The notes under the pieces: generated by a model | What the model was told of the DNA's origin: nothing | The model's input: the letters and a program-made list of their open reading frames with translations, nothing else | Databases searched by the model: none | NCBI GenBank assembly: GCA_030704795.1 | Contig: JAUYCZ010000012.1 | Location: 1 to 38,222 of the forward strand | Direction of reading: 5' to 3' | DNA from: a bacterium | Lineage (GTDB): Bacteria > Patescibacteriota > Minisyncoccia > Minisyncoccales > GWA2-46-15 | DNA length: 38,222 nucleotides | Shown: in pieces, positions 7,524 through 25,533 of the stretch | Position numbering within the stretch: position 1 is the stretch's first letter | How the letters are laid out: each line of letters starts with the position of its first letter | Made by a program: the position numbers and the translations under genes

Positions 7524-8462
7524 CTAATGTTTTATCGGTATAGTGAACCAAAAAGTTGATCCTTCGCCCTCTTTTGATTTAAAGCTCAGCTTGCCGCCGG
7601 ACTTTTCCACGATCGCCTTGGCGATATAGAGCCCCAGACCCGAACCCTGGGCTTGATGACGAAAAGCATTGCCGCCGCGGAAAAACTTTTGGCCGATGTA
7701 TTTTTGGTCATCAGGGAAAATTCCAATTCCATTGTCAACGACCTCAAAATAGAGACCGTTGTTTTTCTTATTGAGAGTGACTTCAACTAAGCCCCGACCC
7801 TTGGTGTAGCGGATGGCATTGTCTAAAAGGTTTTCTATAGCTTGGCCAATTTGAAAAGGATCAAAAAGGGTTTCGGGCAGATTATTTTCTGCCGACAATC
7901 TAACTTCGACATTGGAAGCACGAGCTAGGGGATCTAGCCGGGCGATGGTTTTCTGGACCAATTCTGCCAAAGAAGCTTTCTCCTTCTTGAACAAAAACTC
8001 ATTGCTTTCGATTCGGGAAACGGTTAAAAGATCGGAAACCAGTTCTTCCATTCGTTGACCGTTTTCTCTCAAAATCTGCAGATAGTTGGTTTGTTTTTCC
8101 GGCACCTGTTCAACTTTACCCGAAATTAAGAGATCAATAATCCATCTTAAGTTGGCCAGGGGCGCCCGGAGCTGATGAGAAACAATACTGATAAACTCGG
8201 CCTTTAACCGAACGACCTCGGCCAGCCTTTCAAAGCTCTTGGTAATAGAAAAACCAATGATCATTAAAAGCGTTGACACTCCCAAGACAATCAGGACGAC
8301 GATCTCCGGGTCTTCGGCGTACCCGACTCCGATAAAATAGAGAGTGATAGAAGAGGTAATGACGACAAAACCTAAAATCAAGAAGAGAAACTGCGGACAC
8401 TGCCAAAGCGAAAGTCCGTATTTTTTGCATTGCTTCGCGATATTAAGAGAATCTAACAGCAT
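7524..8462 (-). CDS. Membrane sensor histidine kinase (2 TM, HisKA, HATPase_c)
   Basis: H-box FISIVSHQLRAPL, N-box NLLDNAIRY, G1 DNGIGI, G2 GSGLGLYI. The real start is taken as ATG 8462, because the track's extension to 8630 runs through tRNA-Pro. Confidence 0.92.
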   Translation of the reverse strand: MLLDSLNIAKQCKKYGLSLWQCPQFLFLILGFVVITSSITLYFIGVGYAEDPEIVVLIVLGVSTLLMIIGFSITKSFERLAEVVRLKAEFISIVSHQLRAPLANLRWIIDLLISGKVEQVPEKQTNYLQILRENGQRMEELVSDLLTVSRIESNEFLFKKEKASLAELVQKTIARLDPLARASNVEVRLSAENNLPETLFDPFQIGQAIENLLDNAIRYTKGRGLVEVTLNKKNNGLYFEVVDNGIGIFPDDQKYIGQKFFRGGNAFRHQAQGSGLGLYIAKAIVEKSGGKLSFKSKEGEGSTFWFTIPIKH

Positions 8463-8464
8463 TC

Positions 8465-8493
8465 TTGAATTATACACCAAATTAAAGTAAAGT
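8465..8493. promoter_or_regulatory. Divergent sigma70-type promoters for tRNA-Pro (+) and the kinase (-)
   Basis: Plus strand: TTGAAT (8465-8470), N17, TAAAGT (8488-8493). Minus strand: TATAAT (8474-8469), 6 nt before the kinase ATG. Confidence 0.55.
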
Positions 8494-8501
8494 GGGAAAT
8501 G

Positions 8502-8572
8502 CGGGGCGTAGTGCAACGGTAGCACGAGTGCTTTGGGAGCACTTAGTCCCAGTTCGAATCTGGGCGCCCCGA
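8502..8572 (+). tRNA. tRNA-Pro(TGG), CCA not encoded
   Basis: Acceptor CGGGGCG/CGCCCCG, anticodon arm AGTGC-TTTGGGA-GCACT, T-loop GTTCGAATC. Confidence 0.96.
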
Positions 8573-8649
8573 CACTTCGACTTCGCAAAGCGAAGAAGAA
8601 GTGAGCTGAGCTTGTCGAAGCTCGTCTCACGCTTTGCTTCGCTCAGTGT
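8572..8649. repeat. Composite nested hairpin: a 22-nt REP-like unit split by a 56-nt palindromic insert
   Basis: Outer ends ACACTTCGACTTCGC and TCAGTGT. Inner stems GCAAAGCG/CGCTTTGC, GTGAG/CTCAC and GAGCTT/AAGCTC. CTTCGC is duplicated at 8581 and 8637. Confidence 0.8.
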
Positions 8650-9134: not shown

Positions 9135-9656
9135 ATGAAAATTTTGGTTTTTCTACAAGGCACACTGATAATGCACAAAAGCGCGGTTGGTAAAACCCGC
9201 GAGGAAATTATTGAACAAGTAAAAGCTCAAGAAGAATCAGTTCGCGACTTTAGTTCATACGTTCCCATCGGTAACGCTGTAGAGAAATTAAATAAATGGA
9301 CCGAGCAAGGCGCGGAGATTTTCTATCTAAGCGCCTTAACCGAAGACAAAAAAGCGAGAGGAGATGAAATCATCGGTAAAGAAGGCCTAAAATTTGATCA
9401 GGAAATTTTAGATAGATATGGGTTTCCCGCAGGAGAAATTTATCACCGTCAAAAAGGAGAAAGCTACGCTCAAATAGCCGAAAGAATTGTACCGGACGTT
9501 TTAATTGAAGATGATTGTGAAAGCATTGGCGGAGAAAAAGAAATGACCATCACTTTTGTCAGGCCGGAAATTAAACAAAAAATAAAATCAATTGTTGTTA
9601 AAGAATTTAGCGGCATAGATTATCTACCAGATAATTTGAAGGATTTAATATTATGA
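9135..9656 (+). CDS. HAD-fold-like protein with degenerate motif I
   Basis: N-terminal VFLQGTL stands in place of DxDGTL; FYLSA (motif II-like) and LIEDD (motif IV-like) are present. Confidence 0.5.
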   Translation: MKILVFLQGTLIMHKSAVGKTREEIIEQVKAQEESVRDFSSYVPIGNAVEKLNKWTEQGAEIFYLSALTEDKKARGDEIIGKEGLKFDQEILDRYGFPAGEIYHRQKGESYAQIAERIVPDVLIEDDCESIGGEKEMTITFVRPEIKQKIKSIVVKEFSGIDYLPDNLKDLIL

Positions 9657-10198
9657 CAATAAAAATCACTTATTTTGTTCACGGAACAACAACTGACAAT
9701 GAAAAAGAAATTTCATCTGGCTGGTTTGATGTAGGGCTTTCTGATTTAGGAGTTAACCAATCGGTTGAGTTAAAAGATAAAATCAAGGATAAAAAATTTG
9801 ATGTTGTATTTTGTTCCGATTTAAAAAGAGCAGTTGATTCGGCAAAGCTAACTTTTAAGGGAACTGTTCCGATTATAACGGACAAAAGATTGAGAGAGTG
9901 CAATTATGGAAAATACAACGCCCAATCTTCGGCAATTGTTGAACCAATGCAAGAAAATTGTGTCACTGAAAGATTTCCCGAAGGCGAAAGTTATGAAGAT
10001 GTAAAAACAAGGATTGCTGATTTTCTTGAATTTTTGAAGAAAAACTATGACGGAAAATCTGTTGCAATAGTGGCGCACAAAGCACCGCAACTTGCATTAG
10101 ATGTTTTGTTAAAAAATAAAACATGGGAACAGGCGTTTGCCGAAGATTGGCGAAAAAGAAAAGCGTGGCAACCGGGTTGGGAATATGATATAAAATAA
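9653..10198 (+). CDS. Histidine phosphatase (phosphoglycerate mutase-like) family protein
   Basis: FVHGTT (RHG variant), CSDLKRA, DKRLRECNYG, PEGES, VAH. Confidence 0.88.
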   Translation: MTIKITYFVHGTTTDNEKEISSGWFDVGLSDLGVNQSVELKDKIKDKKFDVVFCSDLKRAVDSAKLTFKGTVPIITDKRLRECNYGKYNAQSSAIVEPMQENCVTERFPEGESYEDVKTRIADFLEFLKKNYDGKSVAIVAHKAPQLALDVLLKNKTWEQAFAEDWRKRKAWQPGWEYDIK

Positions 10199-10347
10199 AA
10201 GCGGCGCGCCAACTTCGTTGGCACGAAATCCTTCCCCTTAACCCTCTTTCCTCCCCGCCCCGCCCAAGCGATTTGGTTCCTGTCACGCGGAACGCGGCAG
10301 TCAGTTCCGTTCAAAGTAGGTTCGCGCTAAATTCAGAATATGCGACC

Positions 10348-10372
10348 ATGTTTAAGCTCCGAGCTTAAACAT
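10348..10372. repeat. Perfect 12-bp inverted repeat with 1-nt centre
   Basis: ATGTTTAAGCTC-C-GAGCTTAAACAT. Confidence 0.8.
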
Positions 10373-10426
10373 CCTGAAAGTCGAATTGGATCAATTAATT
10401 AAATCCTAAGAGTAAACCAGAAAAAT

Positions 10427-10513
10427 ATGTGCGATACTTGCGGTTGCTCGTCTTGCCCAAAATGCGGCAAAGCCGGGGCTGAATGTCAGTGCCCCGAAGA
10501 GAAAAAACAATAA
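10427..10513 (+). CDS. 28-aa Cys-rich metallothionein-like microprotein (not in ORF track)
   Basis: MCDTCGCSSCPKCGKAGAECQCPEEKKQ*, with 7 Cys in CxxC/CxC spacing. It has an AT-rich upstream region and is followed by a terminator. Confidence 0.7.
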   Translation: MCDTCGCSSCPKCGKAGAECQCPEEKKQ

Positions 10514-10527
10514 ATTCAACAGGAATC

Positions 10528-10561
10528 AAAAAGCGGAGGAGACCGGGTTTCCTCCGCTTTT
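10528..10561. terminator. Bidirectional intrinsic terminator
   Basis: AAAAA-GCGGAGGAGAC-CGG-GTTTCCTCCGC-TTTT, lying between convergent genes. Confidence 0.88.
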
Positions 10562-10567
10562 GTCAAA

Positions 10568-11416
10568 TTAGCGAAATTCGGCTAGTAATTTTTCAATCGA
10601 TAACCCTAAGGGCTGCTCGGCTAAAATCGCATCTTTATCCGGCAACAATTGTTCTTCCAGAGTTAGCCGTTCTTCCCGATAGAAAATGCCAACCGGAATT
10701 CTATCTCCCCATTCAAGCGACTTTTCAAAAGCCAAGACTTTATTTTTGGCATCGTGATTCTCTAATTTGTAAATTCTCTCCCTAAACCAAGAATAAGTAT
10801 TTAAATGATTTAAGGCAACGCAGGGCTGTAAAACATCAACCAGGGCAAAGCCCTGGTGATTAATCGCTTCAACTAAAATTTTTGTCAGTTGAGGAACATC
10901 GCCGGCAAAACCGCGGGCGACAAAACTGGCCCCGGAAGCAATCGCTAGCGCCAGCGGATTAAATGGTTGGTCAAAAACACCTTCGGGAGTTAACCTGGTT
11001 TTTACGCCTTTGTCGGAAGTTGGCGAAGGTTGGCCAACCGTCAAAGAATACAACTGATTATTATGCAAAACACAAGTAATGTCGGGGTTTCTTCTGGCCG
11101 CATGGATTAAATGATTGCCGCCTTCACCCAGTTGATCGCCATCACCGACGATGGCCATTGTTTTAAGGCTTTTGTTGGCAATTTTCGCCCCGGTCGCCAA
11201 CGGCAAAGCCCGGCCATGAACCCCCTCAAAGCCATAAGTTTTTAAATAATTAATCATGTGGCCGTGGCAACCAATGCCATAAACGGAGAAAATCTGATCG
11301 GGTCGCAAGCCCATCTCAACGAAAGCGTTTTTCAGAGCCACCCAAATGCCAAAATTACCGCAACCCAAGCACCAAGTGATTTTTACTGGAGTATTAAATT
11401 CTTCTCGAGGCATCAT
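10568..11416 (-). CDS. korB: 2-oxoacid:ferredoxin oxidoreductase beta subunit (TPP-binding)
   Basis: WCLGCGN, GIGCHG, HGRALP, GDGD...GG..H, NNQLYSLT, LVDVLQPC. Substrate specificity cannot be determined from the sequence. Confidence 0.92.
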   Translation of the reverse strand: MMPREEFNTPVKITWCLGCGNFGIWVALKNAFVEMGLRPDQIFSVYGIGCHGHMINYLKTYGFEGVHGRALPLATGAKIANKSLKTMAIVGDGDQLGEGGNHLIHAARRNPDITCVLHNNQLYSLTVGQPSPTSDKGVKTRLTPEGVFDQPFNPLALAIASGASFVARGFAGDVPQLTKILVEAINHQGFALVDVLQPCVALNHLNTYSWFRERIYKLENHDAKNKVLAFEKSLEWGDRIPVGIFYREERLTLEEQLLPDKDAILAEQPLGLSIEKLLAEFR

Positions 11417-13676: not shown

Positions 13677-15194
13677 CTAGGTGCCGCACCCGCCGCCGCC
13701 CGAAGGAGCTTCCTGCGAGAGTCCTTGGTCTTTTAACCAACCCTTGACTCTCTGCCAGCCTTGAGGGGTCGAATAATCTTTGCCGGCCACCACCGAACCG
13801 GGCACTTGTGACCAATCCTGCCCGTCTTTAGCCTTAAAGTAATTGGCGATGTCAAAGTAGGTCTGCGGGAACCAAAAGCTATTGAAATACTTAAAAGCCT
13901 CGAAGATTTCCTCCTTACTGGCCCCCTGAGAGGCCATCAATTCGCCCAAACCCAAGGCGGCCATGCCATGATTGCAGTCGGGAAAAGCGGTCGGATTGGA
14001 ACAGCAGGGACGATAAGAGTTGTAGGCGAATTCTTCAAGAATTTTTTGTTGTCCAGAATTAAGTCTGATCAAGTCGGATTTTGAATAGAGTTCGGTGGCC
14101 TCCTTTTTACCCAGAGTCCAGCCGCCGGTTGAAGCAAAATTTCCCAAGCCATCGGTTCCCCTGGAAACCATTGGACCGGCGTCGAGAATCGAATTCTTAT
14201 TGGCCAATCCCAAAGCCCAGAAGAAATTCAGAAGAAAATGGGCGTTGGCGGACGTAATTTTGATCTTTTGCTGGCTGCCTCGCGTCAGAATATTAATCTC
14301 GTCTTCGGTTAATGGCTGACCGCCGTCTTCATAGACTTTCTTGAATTTATCCAAATCAATGGCGCCAACCTCAATCAATCGGGGACCGAGGTTATTAAAA
14401 GTGGTCTTGATTTCATAACCGGCTTTAGGGTTAATCTGGTCAAGCGTCGCTTGGGCGTCTCCGGAAAGCTGAGAGGCGGCATTGTTCAGAGGAGAAGATT
14501 GGATGACGGCTCCTTTTTTAGCAAAATTGATTTTCAGATTCGAGGGCAAGAGCGGCAGAGCCAGGATCAACAATAGAGTTAAAATCGGAATCAGAACGGG
14601 CAAAGAAGAAATCAGGGCTTTACGATTAAAGTTCAAAACCAGGCTTCCTTGTTCAAAACTGACTAATTTTTCTTTTTTGTCGTCGGCGGCGACATCCGAT
14701 CGGCCGGCCACCGCTCGACTTGAATCAATAATAGAAAGGCTGAAGAGAAAGATGGCGGCCAATTTTAATTCCAGTCCCTGAAAGGGAAAGATGCTCAAGC
14801 CGCCGACAACCCCCAAGGCCGGCAGCAAGAGGCTGCCGCAGACCGGACAACCCATCGAAAGACCGCCAATCAGGCAACCGGTAAAGTCTTTTTCGCCCAG
14901 GCTGTCGGGAATCTTCTTTTCACGCCAACGGTAGGCGAGCATGGTAAAAGCCAGGCTAAAAAGAACCACGCTTAATAAAGTGAGAAGGATGGCCGACCAG
15001 GCATAGAAGGCATTCATCGTCTGAAAAAGCAGGGGCAGGGTGGTGCGCTGAAGAAATATCAGATAATAAGCTAAAAGCAAATTTAAACCCAGGCTGATGG
15101 CAATGAGAACATAAAACCGGTCGCGGAAAACCTGCTTGAGGGACGGAAGAACGTCTTGCAGCGCTGTCACAGTGCTGTGAATTGGATAACGCAT
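13677..15194 (-). CDS. Membrane protein with a TM CPxC module and a Cys/His-rich soluble domain, function unknown
   Basis: About 5 TM helices with GC...GCPVCG, then RPCC...DCNHG, and a C-terminal GGGGCGT. Confidence 0.8.
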   Translation of the reverse strand: MRYPIHSTVTALQDVLPSLKQVFRDRFYVLIAISLGLNLLLAYYLIFLQRTTLPLLFQTMNAFYAWSAILLTLLSVVLFSLAFTMLAYRWREKKIPDSLGEKDFTGCLIGGLSMGCPVCGSLLLPALGVVGGLSIFPFQGLELKLAAIFLFSLSIIDSSRAVAGRSDVAADDKKEKLVSFEQGSLVLNFNRKALISSLPVLIPILTLLLILALPLLPSNLKINFAKKGAVIQSSPLNNAASQLSGDAQATLDQINPKAGYEIKTTFNNLGPRLIEVGAIDLDKFKKVYEDGGQPLTEDEINILTRGSQQKIKITSANAHFLLNFFWALGLANKNSILDAGPMVSRGTDGLGNFASTGGWTLGKKEATELYSKSDLIRLNSGQQKILEEFAYNSYRPCCSNPTAFPDCNHGMAALGLGELMASQGASKEEIFEAFKYFNSFWFPQTYFDIANYFKAKDGQDWSQVPGSVVAGKDYSTPQGWQRVKGWLKDQGLSQEAPSGGGGCGT

Positions 15195-19683: not shown

Positions 19684-19712
19684 TTGCGTTAAATACTCTG
19701 GGGGAGTATAGT
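19684..19712 (+). promoter_or_regulatory. Promoter with an embedded CsoR/RcnR-type operator
   Basis: TTGCGT (19684-19689), N17, TATAGT (19707-19712). The inverted repeat ATACTC-TGGGG-GAGTAT (19693-19709) contains a G tract. Confidence 0.8.
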
Positions 19713-19720
19713 GAGAGGGT

Positions 19721-19996
19721 ATGAAAAAGGAGATTAAGAAAAGAGCCATCCATCGGCTTAAAATATTAGAAGGGCAGATCCGCGGTCTCCAACAGATGGT
19801 CGAAAAAGAAAAATACTGCCTTGATATTCTCCAACAGTCCTCGGCGGCAAAAAATGCTCTTTCCAGCATCGAAAATTTAATTTTGGAAAATCATCTGTCA
19901 ACGCACGTCATTGAACAAATCAAGGTCGGCCAAGAATCAAAAGCGGCCAAAGAAATTTTAACGATCTACAAATTATCAAAAAATAAGCAAGCTTAA
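19721..19996 (+). CDS. csoR: CsoR/RcnR-family metal-sensing repressor
   Basis: RLKILEGQIRGL, YC33LDIL, ENH58LSTH62, upstream of a Cu-type ATPase. Confidence 0.88.
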   Translation: MKKEIKKRAIHRLKILEGQIRGLQQMVEKEKYCLDILQQSSAAKNALSSIENLILENHLSTHVIEQIKVGQESKAAKEILTIYKLSKNKQA

Positions 19997-20050
19997 TTCT
20001 GACGAAATAAATAAGTAAATCTTAGCCTCGCTAAAACGAGGTAAAAAATT

Positions 20051-20224
20051 ATGTTCAACTTTTTTGGGCAAAAATGTCCCGTCTGTAAAATGGAATTGGA
20101 AAAAGGAAAAGATTATCCCGTTGCCGGTGGTAAAAAGTTTTGTTCAGAAAACTGCCGAGAGGAATACCGGCAGCAGTTAGTCAAAGAACAATCTCAACAT
20201 TCCGGCGGCGGTTGTTGCCATTAA
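20051..20224 (+). CDS. 57-aa YHS/TRASH-type metal-binding microprotein (not in ORF track)
   Basis: MFNFFGQKCPVCKMELEKGKDYPVAGGKKFCSENCREEYRQQLVKEQSQHSGGGCCH*. Confidence 0.85.
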   Translation: MFNFFGQKCPVCKMELEKGKDYPVAGGKKFCSENCREEYRQQLVKEQSQHSGGGCCH

Positions 20225-20257
20225 AGGGTCGAAAAATTAACCTTAACTAGATATCAC

Positions 20258-20458
20258 ATGAACCAAAATTTAGGCAAAGTGGACAGGATTTTGCGGTTTG
20301 CCTTGGCCGTCTGGTGGCTTAGTCCGCTGGCGCCGCAATTCGATGCCGGATGGGCCGGTTTACTCATTGCCGTTGTCGGTTGGATTGCACTGGCCGAGAG
20401 TTTTCTTGGCTGGTGCTGGCTTCACCGCCTGTTTGGCATAGACAATAAAAATCAATAA
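20258..20458 (+). CDS. DUF2892 / YgaP-like small membrane protein
   Basis: N.GKVDRILR...GWCWLHRLFGI. Confidence 0.85.
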   Translation: MNQNLGKVDRILRFALAVWWLSPLAPQFDAGWAGLLIAVVGWIALAESFLGWCWLHRLFGIDNKNQ

Positions 20459-20460
20459 TT

Positions 20461-21321
20461 GTGGAATTGCTTTTAAGCGCGTCAATTATGGCCGCTTTCA
20501 TCGCCGGCGTGGCCGCTCTTTTCGCGCCGTGTTGCATTACCGTCCTTCTGCCGTCGTACTTTGCTTCCATTTTTCGCGAGCGACGCAAGGTATTTTTAAT
20601 GACTTTTATTTTCTTTCTGGGCATCCTGACCGTTTTTCTCCCGATCGGATTAGGGGCGGCGGCCCTCGGCCAGTTCTTCAGCCGATATCATAGCGCCGTC
20701 TTCGGCGTCGGCGGCATTTTCCTCACGATATTGGGAATGATTATCCTGACCGGCAAGCATTTCTCCTTGCCGTTCCGGGTTCATCCGACGCTTAAAAAGC
20801 ACAACGCCGTTTCCGTCTACAGCCTTGGCCTATTTTCCGGGATTGCCACGACTTGCTGCGCGCCGGTTCTGGCCGGCGTCCTCGCCCTGGCCGCGCTGCC
20901 CGGGTCAGTGTTTTGGGGCGGCATCTACACCTTGAGCTATGTTTTTGGCATGGTCGCGCCTCTTTTTCTGATTTCGCTTTTCCTTGACAAGGCCGACTTT
21001 AGGCAAAAGTTTCAACAAATCTTTAATCGGCCAATTCAATACCGATTAGGCGGTAAAGAGTTAAAGATTGCCGTTTCTGAAGCCGTCTCGGGCATTACTT
21101 TTCTGGCCATGGGCCTTTTGATTCTTTATCTGGCCCTGACCAATCGGCTCTTTATGCAAGCCGGAGGCTATCAGACAAGCATCAATATCTACCTGACAAA
21201 AACTCTACAATCAATTAGCGGCGTCGTGCAGGTGGTTCCCGAATCTGTCTGGGCGCTTTTATTAATCATCATCATTGGCTTCGTCTGCTGGCGCGTCGTT
21301 CGCCAATTTAACAAAGATTAA
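20461..21321 (+). CDS. ccdA: CcdA-family transmembrane thiol-disulfide electron transporter
   Basis: AFIAG..ALFAPCC...LLPSY and TTCCAPVLAG, multi-TM. Confidence 0.82.
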   Translation: MELLLSASIMAAFIAGVAALFAPCCITVLLPSYFASIFRERRKVFLMTFIFFLGILTVFLPIGLGAAALGQFFSRYHSAVFGVGGIFLTILGMIILTGKHFSLPFRVHPTLKKHNAVSVYSLGLFSGIATTCCAPVLAGVLALAALPGSVFWGGIYTLSYVFGMVAPLFLISLFLDKADFRQKFQQIFNRPIQYRLGGKELKIAVSEAVSGITFLAMGLLILYLALTNRLFMQAGGYQTSINIYLTKTLQSISGVVQVVPESVWALLLIIIIGFVCWRVVRQFNKD

Positions 21322-21330
21322 CAAAAATAA

Positions 21331-21362
21331 CGAGTACGATATATCGGGCGTTCTGCCCGCTA
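21331..21362 (+). repeat. Hairpin repeat copy 1 (CGAGTACGATATATCG + variable hairpin + CGCTA)
   Basis: The 16-mer is identical to the reverse complement of 23230-23245. Confidence 0.8.
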
Positions 21363-21372
21363 TTAAAAAAAC

Positions 21373-22020
21373 ATGGATAAAAAAATGAATGCGGCCATTA
21401 TTATCGCCATCGTCATCGTTGCCGCCGCCGGTCTTCTTGTTTGGAATGGCAGCCAGAATAAAACCGGGGCGCCGGCAGCGGGCCAAGCGCCGGCCGTGGA
21501 TAGGCACGGACATCCCGTAGCGGCCAACGTTGACACCGCGCTACTTAATGAATTGCTTGATAAGCCGGCGCCGGATTTTGCGCTGACGGACAAAGACGGA
21601 AAAACATATTCCTCGAATGAATTACGCGGCAAAGACGTTATCCTTTTCTTCAACGAGGGATTGATGTGTTATCCGGCCTGCTGGAATCAAATCGTCGCCT
21701 TGGCTAAAGACGAACGATTAAAGAATACCGACACCGTTGTTCTATCGGTCGTCGTCGACCCGCTCGTAGAGTGGCAAAAAGCCATTAAGCAAATGCCGGA
21801 ACTGGCCGAGGCCACGGTGGTCTTTGATAAAGATGCGATGGTCTCCAAACAATTTGGCATGCTCACGACGGCGTCTTCAATGCATTATGGATCGCTGCCC
21901 GGTCATACTTTTGTCCTGATTGATAAAAAAGGCGTCATCAAACACGTTTTTGACGACCCCAACATGAGCATCCACAATGATCAATTGGTCGCCGAGTTAA
22001 GTAAACTAAATCAAAATTAA
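21373..22020 (+). CDS. Membrane-anchored thioredoxin-fold protein with SCO-like CxxxC + His
   Basis: TM anchor, KPAPDFAL, FFNEGLMCYPAC, PGHTFVLIDKKG. Confidence 0.75.
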   Translation: MDKKMNAAIIIAIVIVAAAGLLVWNGSQNKTGAPAAGQAPAVDRHGHPVAANVDTALLNELLDKPAPDFALTDKDGKTYSSNELRGKDVILFFNEGLMCYPACWNQIVALAKDERLKNTDTVVLSVVVDPLVEWQKAIKQMPELAEATVVFDKDAMVSKQFGMLTTASSMHYGSLPGHTFVLIDKKGVIKHVFDDPNMSIHNDQLVAELSKLNQN

Positions 22021-22058
22021 AAAAGTCGAAAAAATAACCAATTAATTTAACTCAAAAA

Positions 22059-22334
22059 ATGGAACAATTATCACTCAAAAAATACGGCTGGAAATGCGTT
22101 CTTGGTTCGGAGGTGGTTTATTTTATTTGCCTTCTCGGCGGATTACTCTTTTTACGCACCGCGAGAGGCATAGAATTGCACCACACTATTTTTGAAGCTC
22201 TCCCCGGATTTACATGGATAAATGTCGGCAGCGTCATTCTCGGCGCCGTCTATTTCTTTGTCTTCGCCTGGATATTCGCCTGGTATTTTGTCTGGATGCA
22301 TAATTCCAGCTTGGAAAGAATAACCACTAGTTAG
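22059..22334 (+). CDS. Small membrane protein (possibly DUF5676-like)
   Basis: Three hydrophobic segments, ELHH...LPGFTW; in operon context. Confidence 0.6.
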   Translation: MEQLSLKKYGWKCVLGSEVVYFICLLGGLLFLRTARGIELHHTIFEALPGFTWINVGSVILGAVYFFVFAWIFAWYFVWMHNSSLERITTS

Positions 22335-22335
22335 A

Positions 22336-22764
22336 ATGTATGCAAAATCAATCGCGTACGGAACGCTCGCAAGCGCAATCTTGTTGGGGGTTTATTTTGC
22401 GGCGCTCTCGTTAGTGTCTGGATGGGAGTTCGCTCAAAATCAATTTGCTTCCTTTTGGTATTTTATTGTCAGCCTCGCTATTGGCTTCGGCGTTCAGATC
22501 GGCTTATACGCCTATCTGCGAAATCTTATTCATGGCGGTCATGATAGTGGCAAAGTTTTGGGAGTGACCGGCACGACATCCACGGCGGCAATGATTTCCT
22601 GTTGCGCTCACTATCTTGCCAACCTGCTTCCCATTCTCGGCATTGCCGGAGTTATTACTTTTGTCGCACAATATCAAATACAACTATTTTGGACAGGCTT
22701 GCTGTTTAATATCGGCGGCATTGTCTATATTGGAAGTAAAATCGCTAAGTTTCAAAAAAGATGA
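22336..22764 (+). CDS. 4-TM protein with MISCCAHY motif
   Basis: Hydrophobic, with intramembrane CC-x-H and a luminal HGGH. Confidence 0.7.
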   Translation: MYAKSIAYGTLASAILLGVYFAALSLVSGWEFAQNQFASFWYFIVSLAIGFGVQIGLYAYLRNLIHGGHDSGKVLGVTGTTSTAAMISCCAHYLANLLPILGIAGVITFVAQYQIQLFWTGLLFNIGGIVYIGSKIAKFQKR

Positions 22765-23213
22765 AGTATCTAATCATTCTCGCGCTTGTTTTTCTTCTGT
22801 ACTACTACTATCAGCCCCAAGAGCAGACGCTGTCTCCGCAAAACGAGCAACCGGAACAATCAATAAGCGCCGGGAGGAAACAATGGGAGACAAGAAGTGA
22901 CGATCAGCCGCCGGTTGCCATTAAAGTGACTCCCACCGAATTGGGCCGAGACGCGAAACAGTGGAGATTTAATATTGTTTTTGATACTCATTCCGGAAGT
23001 TTAGACGATGACCCGCTTGCGATAGCAACTCTTATAGACGATAAAAACAATATATATCAACCGAACAATTGGGAAGGAGCGGGACCCGGCGGTCATCATC
23101 GAGAAGGGGTGCTAATATTCGAGGCAATCAATCCTGCGCCGGCGTACGTGGAATTAAAAATCAAAAATGTCGGCGGTATTGCCGAACGTTTGTTTAAATG
23201 GAAAATGCAATAG
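22761..23213 (+). CDS. Exported hypothetical protein with His motifs
   Basis: N-terminal anchor, DTHSGSLD, GGHHREG. Confidence 0.7.
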   Translation: MKYLIILALVFLLYYYYQPQEQTLSPQNEQPEQSISAGRKQWETRSDDQPPVAIKVTPTELGRDAKQWRFNIVFDTHSGSLDDDPLAIATLIDDKNNIYQPNNWEGAGPGGHHREGVLIFEAINPAPAYVELKIKNVGGIAERLFKWKMQ

Positions 23214-23248
23214 CGAGCGGTACACCGCTCGATATATCGTACTCGCTA
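23211..23248 (-). repeat. Hairpin repeat copy 2, inverted relative to copy 1
   Basis: TAGCGAGCGG-TACA-CCGCTCGATATATCGTACTCGCTA; its TAG is the stop codon of the upstream gene. Confidence 0.8.
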
Positions 23249-23286
23249 TAAGCTGTCATTAACCCCGTTAAAAACCTAATCAATAT

Positions 23287-25533
23287 ATGAAAAAAAATGA
23301 ATTTCTGGCCCTAAAAGTCATGGGCATGGATTCGCCTCACTGCGCTATGGTCGTGGAGAAAGCCATCAAGACCCTGCCGGGCGTTGAAAAGATAGAAGTG
23401 GATTACAATAACGCTCGGGCAAAAGTGGTTTTTGATCCGCAAAAAGTCAACGAGGAACAGATTAAAAAAGTGATTACTGATTCCGGCTACAAAGTGATGC
23501 GGGAGGCGGCCGAAGCACAAAATCTTTTAGAGCAGGAAAAACAGGAAAGAGAAAAAGAATTGTCTGTCTTAAAAAAGAAAATACTGGTCGGCACCATTCT
23601 TTCGGCCATGATTTTTCTCGGCAGTTTCCCCGAATGGTTTCCGTTTGTTCCCGCGCTTTTTAATAACTATCTTGTTCTTTTAATTTTGACCACGCCGGTT
23701 CAATTCTGGGTGGGTTCAAGATTTTATTCTGGCCTCAAAATTCTTTTTAAATACCGGGCGGCGGATATGAATACTTTAATTGCCATCGGGACTTTGGCCG
23801 CTTATTTCTACAGCGCCGCCGTTACTTTCTTTGGAGACTTCTTTAGCCGAGGCGGAGTTGAACCGAAAATTTATTTTGACACCTCGGCCGTTATCATCAC
23901 CTTAATTTTGCTCGGACGTTATCTCGAGCTCTTGGCCAAGGGCCGGGCCTCGGAAGCGATCAAAAAATTGATGAAGCTTTCGGTCAAGACGGCGCGGGTC
24001 GTCCGCGATAACAAAGAACTGGAGATTCCAATTGAAGAAGTCGTTGTCGGCGATATTATCATTGTCCGGCCAGGAGAAAAAATCCCGGTTGACGGCGAAG
24101 TCATCGAGGGCCGTTCGCAGATAGACGAATCAATGGTCACCGGCGAGAGCATGCCGGTTTCCAAAGAGCCGGGAGCAAGAGTCATCGGCGCCACTATTAA
24201 CCAAGTTGGCTCTTTTAAGTTTAAGGCATTGAGAGTGGGCAAAGAAACGGTTCTGGCCCAAATCATCAAAATGGTGGAGCAGGCCCAGGGGTCAAAAGCG
24301 CCGATTCAGCGTCTGGCCGATATAATTTCCGGCTATTTTGTCCCGGCCGTCATCGGTGTGGCCATTTTGACATTTATTATTTGGTTAATTTGGGGACCGG
24401 AGCCGGCGTTTACCTTTGCTTTGATTAATTTCGTCGCCGTGCTCATCATCGCTTGTCCTTGCGCTTTGGGCCTGGCCACGCCCATGGCGATGATGGTAGG
24501 AATCGGCCAGGGGGCGGAAAAAGGAATTTTGATCCGTGAGGCGGCGGCGCTGGAAACGGCGCACAAAACCAAGGTCGTCATCTTAGATAAAACCGGAACT
24601 CTAACTCAAGGAAAACCGGCCGTCACCGATATTCTGCCGGTTGGGAATCAAACCAACGACTACATTTTGAAAGTCGCCGCCAGTTTAGAGCAAAGGTCAG
24701 AACATCCCTTAGGAAAAGCCATCGTTGAAAAAGCTAAAGAAAAAAAGTTTGAGCTTTTTGAAGTTTCCGATTTTGAGGCCGTCCCCGGCAAAGGAATAAA
24801 AGGGAATCTTTTAATTGACGGGGATAACGTGGCGGCGGCTTTGGGCAATCGCGAAATGCTAAAGTTTTTGAATTTGGATATCATAGATATTGAAGAAGAA
24901 ATGGAAAAATTAGAAAAAGAAGGCAAGACGGTTATGATTTTATCTTTAGGCCATCAAATCGCCGGACTGATGGCCGTGGCCGATATTCTAAAACCGGAAG
25001 CCAAAGAAGCGATCAGAAAATTAAAAGAAGCTGGCTTAGAAATTTGGATGATTACCGGCGATAACGAAAGAACGGCTCAGGCCATCGGCCAACAAGTAGG
25101 GATTCTAAATATAATGGCGCAGGTTTTACCGCAAAATAAAGCGCTAAAAGTTCAAGAACTGCAAAAACAAGGTAAAAAAGTTGCCATGATCGGCGACGGC
25201 ATTAACGACGCGCCGGCGCTAGCGCAGTCAGACCTCGGGATCGCCATGGGCGAAGGAACCGACGTAGCGATGGAATCGGCCGGGGTAACCCTGATGCGCG
25301 GCGATCTCAACCTGATCGCCGATCTCTTCAATTTGTCGCGCAGAACTTTGCGCATCGTCAAACAAAATCTTTTTTGGGCCTTTTTCTACAATATCGCTTT
25401 TATTCCGGTCGCGGCCGGCGCGCTTTATCCATTTTTTGGGATTTTACTTAATCCCGTTTTTGCCGCCGCCGCCATGGCCTTTTCTTCAATTTCTGTTGTT
25501 CTGAACTCTTTACGGCTGAAAGCAAGCAAATAG
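23287..25533 (+). CDS. copA: P1B-1 copper-exporting P-type ATPase
   Basis: [30 protein letters not shown], and the TM YN and MAFSS Cu(I)-type signatures. The N-terminal HMA reads GMDSPHC. Confidence 0.95.

What the first reader, a model, noticed from the sequence alone, without database searches (positions are those of the whole stretch)
10427..10513. Unannotated 28-aa, seven-cysteine metallothionein-like peptide
Seen: MCDTCGCSSCPKCGKAGAECQCPEEKKQ, which is 25% Cys with no aromatic or large hydrophobic residues. It is a separate transcription unit ending at a strong terminator and converges on the metal/redox operon. Established: metallothioneins such as SmtA/BmtA and MymT are small Cys-rich chelators often missed by gene callers. 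Inference: an exceptionally short bacterial metallothionein, and possibly an unrecognised CPR family.
Basis: partly seen in the sequence, partly recalled or inferred. Interest (0 to 1): 0.75.

Follow-up and report, generated by a model that had tools for sequence, protein, structure and literature searches.

The report
Conserved tiny seven-cysteine peptide gene
A real 28-codon gene, too short for standard gene finders, encodes a peptide that is one-quarter cysteine and is kept by selection in a few ultra-small uncultured bacteria; it most likely grips metal ions, but that has not been tested and the family is very rare.

Summary
The ORF is exactly as described: 10427-10513 (+), MCDTCGCSSCPKCGKAGAECQCPEEKKQ, 7 Cys in 28 residues. 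It is not chance. It is the only such ORF among 8,318 in this 637-kb genome, and none arose in 40 simulated genomes.

Two distinct homologues exist in unrelated contexts:
- MCDTCGCTKCPKCGKVPAECECEE
- MCDTCGCTTCPKCGKVPAEREYEKETPPPQA

A third, 97 % identical copy sits in a hot-spring metagenome. Over the first 15 codons synonymous sites are nearly saturated (pS 0.78-0.90) while pN is 0.04-0.10, so the peptide is translated and under purifying selection. The invariant core is MCDTCGC-xx-CPKCGK-xx-AE: two back-to-back rubredoxin-type knuckles (CxxCG, CPxCG) plus a fifth Cys. The last two Cys vary.

It matches no Pfam, NCBIfam, PDB or Rfam family. It fails the membership criteria of SmtA/BmtA, rubredoxin, CPxCG zinc-finger µ-proteins and SCIFF.

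The family is extremely rare. It is absent from about 860 Patescibacteria genomes, including all genus relatives, and from a motif scan of 185,579 species genomes.

A metal-thiolate (metallothionein-like) role is the best inference. The gene lies at the edge of a Cu/thiol-redox gene region, but that link is not conserved and binding is untested. This is a new small family of a known kind.

The parts
10427..10513 (+). 28-codon gene (stop included) for MCDTCGCSSCPKCGKAGAECQCPEEKKQ. The invariant family core is residues 1-15 (MCDTCGCxxCPKCGK) plus A18 and E19. C20 and C22 are variable.
   Evidence: sequence; not chance; homologues; pS 0.78-0.90 against pN 0.04-0.10 in codons 1-15, with 7-8 of 9-10 differences at third positions.
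10529..10561 (.). Bidirectional intrinsic terminator, AAAAGCGGAGGAGACC/GGTTTCCTCCGCTTTT, 16 nt after the stop codon. It is shared with the convergent OFOR-beta gene.
   Evidence: (-23.4 kcal/mol on +, -19.3 on -, no shuffle as good). Positions 10529-10548 are retained without change in the hot-spring contig.
10377..10387 (+). AAAGTCGAATT, 40-50 nt upstream of the ATG. A similar AAAGTCG(G)AATT lies upstream of the ORF in the hot-spring contig and in L012. It is a possible promoter or operator element. The support is weak: three sequences, two of them close relatives.
   Evidence: (loose-end consensus). Eleven-mers with one mismatch occur 29 times in the genome, so this is only a lead.
10348..10372 (.). 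Perfect 12+1+12 palindrome ATGTTTAAGCTC-C-GAGCTTAAACAT, 55 nt upstream of the ATG. It is a dispersed repeat with 3 copies in the genome. It probably does not belong specifically to the peptide gene.
   Evidence: z -4.6; copies at C4:52631 and, inside an ORF, at C30:8253.

Best explanation
SHOWN. Positions 10427-10513 are a real protein-coding micro-gene. Its 28-residue product belongs to a small, previously undescribed family of 24-31 aa peptides with an invariant N-terminal module, M-C-D-T-C-G-C-x-x-C-P-K-C-G-K-x-x-A-E. That module is under strong purifying selection.

INFERRED. The peptide has no hydrophobic core, so it can only fold around metal. The five invariant cysteines are arranged as two adjacent rubredoxin-type knuckles, C2-x2-C5-G and C10-P-x-C13-G, with C7 between them. 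In this genome C20 and C22 add two more. Together they would ligate soft metal ions through thiolates: Zn(II), Cu(I) or Cd(II), either one tetrahedral site plus extra thiolates or a small polynuclear cluster.

Functionally I read it as a metallothionein-like metal buffer or sink. It is carried as a sporadic accessory gene. Here it sits in a variable spot (GIY-YIG, VHG-type histidine phosphatase) at the edge of a roughly 15-kb Cu/thiol-redox gene region (DUF411, CcdA-like, CsoR, CopA-type ATPase).

It is unannotated because 87 nt is below the 90-nt minimum of Prodigal-type gene callers (own knowledge).
For: Existence and selection:
- ORF and composition.
- Unique in the genome, and absent from 40 simulated genomes.
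- A phmmer search of 1.84 billion representative proteins gives one hit, P0001 (E 1.5e-4). It carries MCDTCGCTTCPKCGK behind a mis-called upstream start.
- A degenerate DNA pattern finds a 24-aa member in metagenome contig FWWL01050840.1 with an in-frame stop one codon before its ATG.
- A hot-spring metagenome contig is 97 % identical over the ORF and keeps the terminator, but has indels in both flanks.
- Nei-Gojobori over codons 1-15: pS 0.78-0.90, pN 0.04-0.10.
- Cys codon choice follows each host's composition: TGC 6:1 here, where the genome prefers TGC 64 %; mostly TGT in the AT-rich contigs.
- The missing Shine-Dalgarno sequence is normal here. Only 16 % of 375 long ORFs have one.

Metal reading:
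- 25 % Cys, with no aromatic or aliphatic core.
- The invariant G6, P11 and G14 match the CxxCG/CPxCG knuckle signatures. The only PDB and Pfam resemblances are CPxCGK zinc knuckles and a sub-threshold Metallothio_Euk match.
- The neighbourhood contains DUF411, a DsbD/CcdA-like protein, a CsoR-family repressor and an HMA-P1B ATPase.
Against: - No experiment or expression data exist. No RNA runs hold the locus.
- No metal-responsive operator lies upstream. The CsoR-type TACT-N7-AGTA site occurs only at csoR itself.
- The gene context is not conserved among the three members.
- The sister species with the same OFOR operon lacks the gene.
- Such strict conservation of non-Cys residues is unusual for metallothioneins and fits a specific binding or structural role.
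- The last two Cys are replaced by R and Y in one member.
- AlphaFold2 models have modest confidence (pLDDT 68 and 65) and no structural match.
Confidence: 0.55

Rival explanations
1. Single-site mini zinc (or iron) knuckle that acts through binding a partner. C2, C5, C10 and C13 hold one structural metal. The rigid 15-residue module plus the charged tail then binds a protein or nucleic acid, as the archaeal C(P)xCG zinc-finger µ-proteins (Brz, HVO_2753) do, rather than buffering metal.
For: - D3, T4, G6, P11, K12, G14, K15, A18 and E19 are invariant despite saturated synonymous sites.
- The CxxCG and CPxCG patterns are the defining patterns of CPxCG-related zinc fingers (PMC2253796).
- The PDB profile search hits only CPxCGK knuckles, including an HVO_2753-like small zinc-finger protein.
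Against: - The two patterns are only 3-4 residues apart, against the 7-40 required by the published definition.
- There is no beta-hairpin or ribbon between them.
- The invariant fifth Cys and the two extra Cys are unexplained.
- No conserved neighbour points to a partner.
Confidence: 0.22
2. Redox micro-protein: a minimal Fe(Cys)4 (rubredoxin-like) or [4Fe-4S] (C7-x2-C10-x2-C13 plus a fourth Cys; C22-P23 in this genome) electron carrier. It could possibly serve the adjacent two-subunit 2-oxoacid:ferredoxin oxidoreductase.
For: - Rubredoxin-type knuckles and a CxxCxxC...CP string are present in the window's peptide.
- The gene is convergent with, and shares a terminator with, OFOR alpha/beta.
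- The genome has no rubredoxin.
Against: - The genome already encodes a conventional 2x[4Fe-4S] ferredoxin at C30:7043-7228.
- The sister genome has the same OFOR without the peptide.
- The homologues are not next to OFOR.
- The C20/C22-P motif is not conserved.
- There is no aromatic or hydrophobic shielding of a redox centre.
Confidence: 0.07
3. Genetically encoded thiol reagent or modified-peptide precursor. One option is a Cys-rich sink for electrophiles and oxidants. The other is a RiPP core, where Cys plus Ser/Thr could give thioether links.
For: Cys alternates with Thr and Ser (T4, S/T8, S/T9). CPR genomes lack glutathione-type systems (own knowledge).
Against: - There is no leader peptide; the conserved core starts at Met1.
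- There is no radical-SAM gene on this contig.
- There is no SCIFF or other NCBIfam/Pfam hit.
- No maturase, protease or exporter is conserved next to any member.
Confidence: 0.06
4. Non-functional chance ORF, or a DNA/RNA element that only happens to be open.
For: Distribution is very sparse. There is no RNA evidence. No promoter was identified.
Against: - The third-position substitution pattern, pS far above pN.
- The ATG and reading frame are preserved in three unrelated contexts while the flanks are unalignable.
- Zero of 40 simulated genomes produce such an ORF.
- There is no Rfam match.
Confidence: 0.03

Closest known systems
Fungal family-8 Cu(I) metallothioneins (Neurospora crassa / Agaricus bisporus type: about 25 aa, 7 Cys; own knowledge)
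   Same: Similar size (24-31 aa), 7 Cys in two members, no aromatic residues, built from C-x-C and C-x2-C motifs, and no fold without metal.
   Different: There is no sequence homology. The Cys spacing differs: C-x2-C-x-C-x2-C-x2-C-x6-C-x-C here. Only 5 Cys are invariant. Non-Cys residues are strictly conserved. The gene is bacterial (CPR-like) and its metal preference is unknown.
Bacterial metallothioneins SmtA/BmtA (Pfam PF02069) and MymT of Mycobacterium
   Same: Small, Cys-rich, sporadically distributed accessory genes of bacteria, often missed in annotation. The presumed role is as a sink for soft metals.
   Different: Those are about 53-56 aa and use His ligands. SmtA also has a zinc-finger-like fold with an aromatic residue. 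The peptide here is half that size, has no His and matches no Pfam model. It also lacks an adjacent SmtB- or RicR-type regulator.
CPxCG-related zinc-finger µ-proteins of archaea and some bacteria (Brz, HVO_2753; PMC2253796, PMC10117724)
   Same: One-domain micro-proteins defined by a CxxCG and a CPxCG pattern. They are often unannotated. The profile search touches an HVO_2753-like chain.
   Different: Those are 50-70 aa with the two patterns 7-40 residues apart, forming a zinc ribbon. Here the patterns are separated by only G-C-x-x, and there are additional invariant and variable Cys.
Rubredoxin (PF00301)
   Same: The same pair of knuckle signatures in the same order: C-x-x-C-G then C-P-x-C-G.
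   Different: Rubredoxin has about 29 residues and an aromatic core between the knuckles. There is no Pfam hit, and the genome has no rubredoxin at all.
Other unannotated Cys-rich mini-peptides noted by this scan in CPR genomes (AI notes, e.g. e1-5040394, e1-2552511, e1-1022749)
   Same: Same lifestyle group, same size range, same MT-like composition and the same reason for being missed.
   Different: No shared sequence words with any of them. This one has a knuckle-type core and is far rarer.

Membership tests
Metallothionein (operational definition) | Low molecular weight, high Cys content, few or no aromatic residues | tested here: met
   28 aa, 25 % Cys and no aromatic residue in the window and L012 peptides. 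L011 has one Tyr in its tail.
Metallothionein (operational definition) | Binds several metal ions in metal-thiolate clusters | not testable with these tools
   Needs a peptide and ESI-MS or spectroscopy.
Bacterial MT family 14, SmtA/BmtA (PF02069) | Match to the family profile; about 55 aa with 9 Cys and 2 His in a Zn4 cluster | tested here: not met
   No Pfam hit at E <= 0.1. At E <= 10 only Metallothio_Euk appears, at 11.8 bits against a cutoff of 22. There is no His.
MymT-type Cu(I) metallothionein | Sequence similarity to the 53-aa mycobacterial protein | tested here: not met
   phmmer against 1.84 billion representatives returned only P0001, a homologue of the peptide itself.
CPxCG-related zinc-finger small proteins (Tarasov et al. 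2008) | [quoted passage not shown] | tested here: met
   CDTCG (residues 2-6) and CPKCG (residues 10-14), invariant in all members.
CPxCG-related zinc-finger small proteins (Tarasov et al. 2008) | The two patterns lie 7-40 residues apart | tested here: not met
   Only 3 residues (C7-x-x) lie between the patterns. The definition was read.
Rubredoxin (PF00301) | Profile match; knuckles separated by about 29 residues with an aromatic core | tested here: not met
   No Pfam hit. There are no aromatic residues.
4Fe-4S ferredoxin | CxxCxxCxxxCP motif and a Fer4 profile match | tested here: not met
   The spacing here is CxxCxxC-x6-CxCP and only in this genome's copy. There is no Fer4 hit. A true ferredoxin lies elsewhere, at C30:7043-7228.
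SCIFF / ranthipeptide-type RiPP precursors | Leader peptide plus an adjacent radical-SAM maturase; TIGR03973-type profile | tested here: not met
   No NCBIfam hit. No radical-SAM gene on contig C29. The conserved core starts at Met1.

The most novel reading that the evidence does not exclude
The 15-residue module MCDTCGCxxCPKCGK is the smallest natural two-knuckle metal centre. It would be a rubredoxin-like Fe(Cys)4 or mini Fe-S redox micro-protein rather than a passive metal sink. On this reading it works as a minimal electron carrier or redox sensor for the oxidoreductase and thiol-redox machinery it abuts in this minimal genome.
Probability: 0.07. Interest if true: 0.8.

Novelty: new variant of a known kind. 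Interest (0 to 1): 0.45.

Why it matters
If metal binding is confirmed, this would be the shortest bacterial metallothionein-type peptide. At 24-31 aa it is about half the size of SmtA or MymT. It would also be a natural example of two rubredoxin-type knuckles fused with almost no linker, which is useful as a minimal metal-binding scaffold.

It also shows concretely that genes just under the 90-nt gene-caller threshold are invisible in protein databases. The only database hit existed because one homologue was mis-called with a longer upstream start.

Its biological weight is limited by rarity. It is an accessory gene seen in only three or four populations, not a CPR-wide trait.

Tried and rejected
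An X-padded query found nothing. The exact sequence is not in the 15-billion-protein collection. A search with P0001 found only itself.
- The two weak hits from the genome search among 60 relatives were artefacts: one is antisense inside an alpha/beta-hydrolase gene, the other is the zinc ribbon of ribosomal protein L32.
- Profile searches of 400 phylum and 400 order genomes gave only CPxCG knuckles of large proteins.
- The relaxed motif CGCxxCPKCG gave 24 hits in 185,579 species genomes. I judged all of them to be off-frame, GC-rich or unrelated long proteins. The strict pattern gave 0 in the genome and viral collections.
- Rfam searches, at gathering thresholds and at E <= 10, returned only tRNAs and terminator-like noise.
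- No RNA-seq run holds the locus. The L011 stretch could not be sent to the run index. Run X6 only holds an identical copy of L012.
- I tested CsoR control of the gene. The operator-like site is found only at csoR.
- I tested the upstream palindrome as a private operator. It is a 3-copy dispersed repeat, one copy inside a gene.
- AlphaFold2 plus Foldseek gave modest confidence and no match.
- Placing L012 taxonomically through UvrB gave only 59-61 % identity, with the best hits in the same order and class as this genome. That is compatible with Patescibacteria but not decisive.

Full report
1. OBSERVATION

The window carries ATG at 10427 and TAA at 10511-10513 on the + strand. The product is MCDTCGCSSCPKCGKAGAECQCPEEKKQ. 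It has seven Cys in 28 residues and no aromatic or aliphatic side chains. No alternative in-frame start exists upstream; the stop-to-stop frame is only 36 codons.

The window is contig C29 of a 636,697-bp, 46 % GC genome of the ultra-small Patescibacteria/CPR type. Among all 8,318 ORFs of at least 20 codons in that genome, this is the only one with 7 or more Cys; the next best have 5. Forty genomes simulated from a second-order Markov model produced no ORF with 7 or more Cys at 25 % or more. They gave a mean of 0.025 per genome even for 5 or more Cys. Long ORFs of the genome contain 0.86 % Cys.

Sixteen bases after the stop lies a 15-bp-stem hairpin (10529-10561, -23.4 kcal/mol, z -4.9). It is flanked by an A-run and a U-run, which makes it a bidirectional terminator shared with the convergent gene at 10568-11416.

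2. IS IT A GENE?

Protein databases were nearly blind to it.
- The exact peptide is not in the 15-billion-protein collection.
- It has no Pfam or NCBIfam match.
- At 87 nt it is just under the 90-nt minimum of Prodigal-type callers (own knowledge).

A phmmer search of 1.84 billion representative proteins, using the 36-residue stop-to-stop translation, returned a single hit, P0001 (E 1.5e-4). P0001 is a 55-aa call on a 1.7-kb Logan contig (L011). Its real gene evidently starts at an internal ATG, 21 nt after the stop of the preceding esterase gene. That gives MCDTCGCTTCPKCGKVPAEREYEKETPPPQA.

A degenerate DNA pattern for C-[DE]-x-C-G-C-x-x-C-P-K-C-G found one more member in metagenome contig FWWL01050840.1 (L012): MCDTCGCTKCPKCGKVPAECECEE. 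It has an in-frame TAA one codon before the ATG and lies between uvrB and a 155-aa gene.

Logan contigs of a hot-spring metagenome (run X3) hold a 224-nt contig that is 97 % identical over 10413-10512. It is identical over the terminator stem but has indels in both flanks.

Alignment of the three distinct members gives these invariant positions: M1 C2 D3 T4 C5 G6 C7 C10 P11 K12 C13 G14 K15 A18 E19.

At the DNA level, 7-8 of the 9-10 differences in the first 45 nt fall on third codon positions. Nei-Gojobori counts give pS 0.78-0.90 and pN 0.04-0.10. The flanks cannot be aligned.

Cys codon choice tracks the host. It is TGC 6:1 here, in a genome that prefers TGC, and mostly TGT in the AT-rich contigs. 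This argues for long residence in each lineage.

The lack of a Shine-Dalgarno sequence is normal in this genome: only 16 % of 375 long ORFs have one.

I conclude with about 0.9 confidence that the peptide is translated and selected as a peptide.

3. DISTRIBUTION AND CONTEXT

The family is very rare.
- No copy in 60 relatives (the two weak hits are artefacts).
- None in 400 evenly drawn genomes of the phylum.
- None in 400 genomes of the same order, including all seven genus relatives.
- Zero true hits in motif scans of 185,579 species genomes and of viral contigs.

In the closest species (G007; OFOR-beta 92 % identical) the HAD-like gene is followed directly by an unrelated 377-nt spacer and then OFOR-beta. 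The VHG-type histidine-phosphatase gene, the 228-nt spacer and the peptide gene are all missing. The gene therefore sits in a variable, accessory spot downstream of tRNA-Pro that also holds a GIY-YIG gene.

The three members share no neighbours.

In this genome the gene lies at the edge of a metal/thiol-redox region:
- OFOR alpha/beta, DUF411 and an unassigned 505-aa Cys membrane protein;
- further on, DsbD/CcdA-like, a CsoR-family repressor and an HMA-containing P1B ATPase.

No CsoR-type operator precedes the peptide gene; the only TACT-N7-AGTA site is at csoR itself.

The striking 25-nt palindrome 55 nt upstream of the ATG is a dispersed 3-copy repeat, one copy lying inside a gene.

A short AAAGTCG(G)AATT string is shared upstream in the window, X3 and L012. 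It is only a weak lead.

No sigma-70-like promoter was detected and no RNA run contains the locus. 'Separate transcription unit' therefore remains unproven.

4. MECHANISM

Shown: a 24-31-residue peptide with a strictly conserved 15-residue, five-Cys N-terminal module and a variable acidic/basic tail. The tail carries two more Cys in two of the three members.

Inferred: without any hydrophobic core the peptide can fold only around metal.

The invariant Gly after C5 and C13 and the Pro after C10 reproduce the CxxCG and CPxCG 'knuckle' signatures of rubredoxins and zinc ribbons. The only similarities in the PDB and Pfam are CPxCGK knuckles and a sub-threshold eukaryotic metallothionein match.

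Unlike every described knuckle pair, the two are separated by just G-C-x-x. The published CPxCG-related zinc-finger definition requires 7-40 residues (PMC2253796). A fifth invariant Cys sits in the linker.

This geometry fits two readings:
- a compact M(Cys)4 site with spare thiolates;
- a small polynuclear thiolate cluster, as in the 25-aa, 7-Cys fungal Cu-metallothioneins (own knowledge).

Together with the sporadic, accessory distribution and the metal-gene neighbourhood here, I favour a metallothionein-like soft-metal buffer or sink (0.55).

The main rival is a structural single-metal knuckle that acts by binding a partner, as archaeal zinc-finger µ-proteins do (0.22). The strict conservation of non-Cys residues speaks for it.

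A redox role for the neighbouring OFOR is unlikely (0.07). The genome has a normal 2x[4Fe-4S] ferredoxin, the sister genome has the OFOR without the peptide, and the CxCP tail is not conserved.

A RiPP or thiol-reagent role is also unlikely (0.06). There is no leader, no radical-SAM gene on the contig and no SCIFF-type hit.

A chance ORF is essentially excluded (0.03).

AlphaFold2 gave pLDDT 68 (79 over residues 1-10) and 65, with no Foldseek match. This is uninformative.

5. COMPARISON AND NOVELTY

The peptide works most like a metallothionein or mini zinc knuckle. It is not a member of SmtA/BmtA, MymT, fungal MT, rubredoxin, ferredoxin, CPxCG µ-protein or SCIFF families; each fails at least one defining feature tested here (see the membership table).

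No paper in the library contains the motif or links metallothioneins with CPR.

Earlier AI notes of this scan list many other unannotated Cys-rich mini-peptides in CPR genomes, none sharing sequence words with this one. The kind of object is therefore recurrent and this is a further, unusually rare, sequence family.

I class it as a new variant of a known kind.

6. VERDICT

Interest is 0.45. It is a clean case of a hidden micro-gene with an unusual fused-knuckle motif, but it is rare, accessory and functionally unproven.

Noticed in passing
window 10348-10372; also G000 C4:52631 and C30:8253: A perfect 25-nt palindrome, ATGTTTAAGCTCCGAGCTTAAACAT, occurs three times in the 637-kb genome. One copy is identical. 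One has 2 mismatches and lies inside a 322-aa ORF. Only the palindrome is shared, not the flanks, so it looks like a tiny dispersed element or a regulon site.
   Followed up: partly
window 9653-10198 (+): The histidine phosphatase (His_Phos_1, E 9e-30) begins YFVHGTTTDNE: Val replaces the Arg of the RHG catalytic motif. The gene is absent from all six genus relatives at this locus. Scan notes report the same VHG variant as accessory cargo in other Patescibacteria.
   Followed up: partly
window 10210-10328: The C-rich spacer upstream of the peptide gene is 99 % identical to a 151-nt contig in a different groundwater metagenome (run X2). That contig continues into unrelated sequence after 10328. 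The hairpin at 10199-10229 also recurs on other X1 and X2 contigs. The spacer may be built from mobile or repeated pieces.
   Followed up: no
window 7524-8630 (-) and 8502-8573 (+): The longest frame of the histidine-kinase gene (GTG start at 8630) overlaps tRNA-Pro(TGG). The sister genome shows the same arrangement, so the real kinase start must lie downstream of the tRNA.
   Followed up: no
window 13677-15194 (-): A 505-aa membrane protein with several Cys motifs and a C-terminal SGGGGCGT has no Pfam or NCBIfam match. It lies directly upstream of a DUF411 (CopG-like) gene in the operon that ends with OFOR.
   Followed up: no
window 19694-19708 and 19721-25533: A single TACTCTGGGGGAGTA site lies just upstream of a CsoR-family repressor gene. 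That gene heads a run of genes including zf-FLZ/YHS-like, YgaP-like, DsbD/CcdA-like and AhpC/Redoxin-like proteins and an HMA-P1B ATPase: a copper-type operon.
   Followed up: partly
L011 376-1488: The gene before the L011 homologue encodes a 370-aa Abhydrolase_2-type esterase. Its N-terminus (MKCPNCKSDYV...) looks like an IS1 InsA-type zinc finger followed by a membrane helix.
   Followed up: no
L005 (G007) 1380-1450: The spacer that replaces the peptide gene in the sister species contains a tRNA-3'-half-like string (…CCCAGTTCGAATCTGAGCGCCCCGA…) that ARAGORN does not call. It may be a tRNA remnant marking an old integration site.
   Followed up: no
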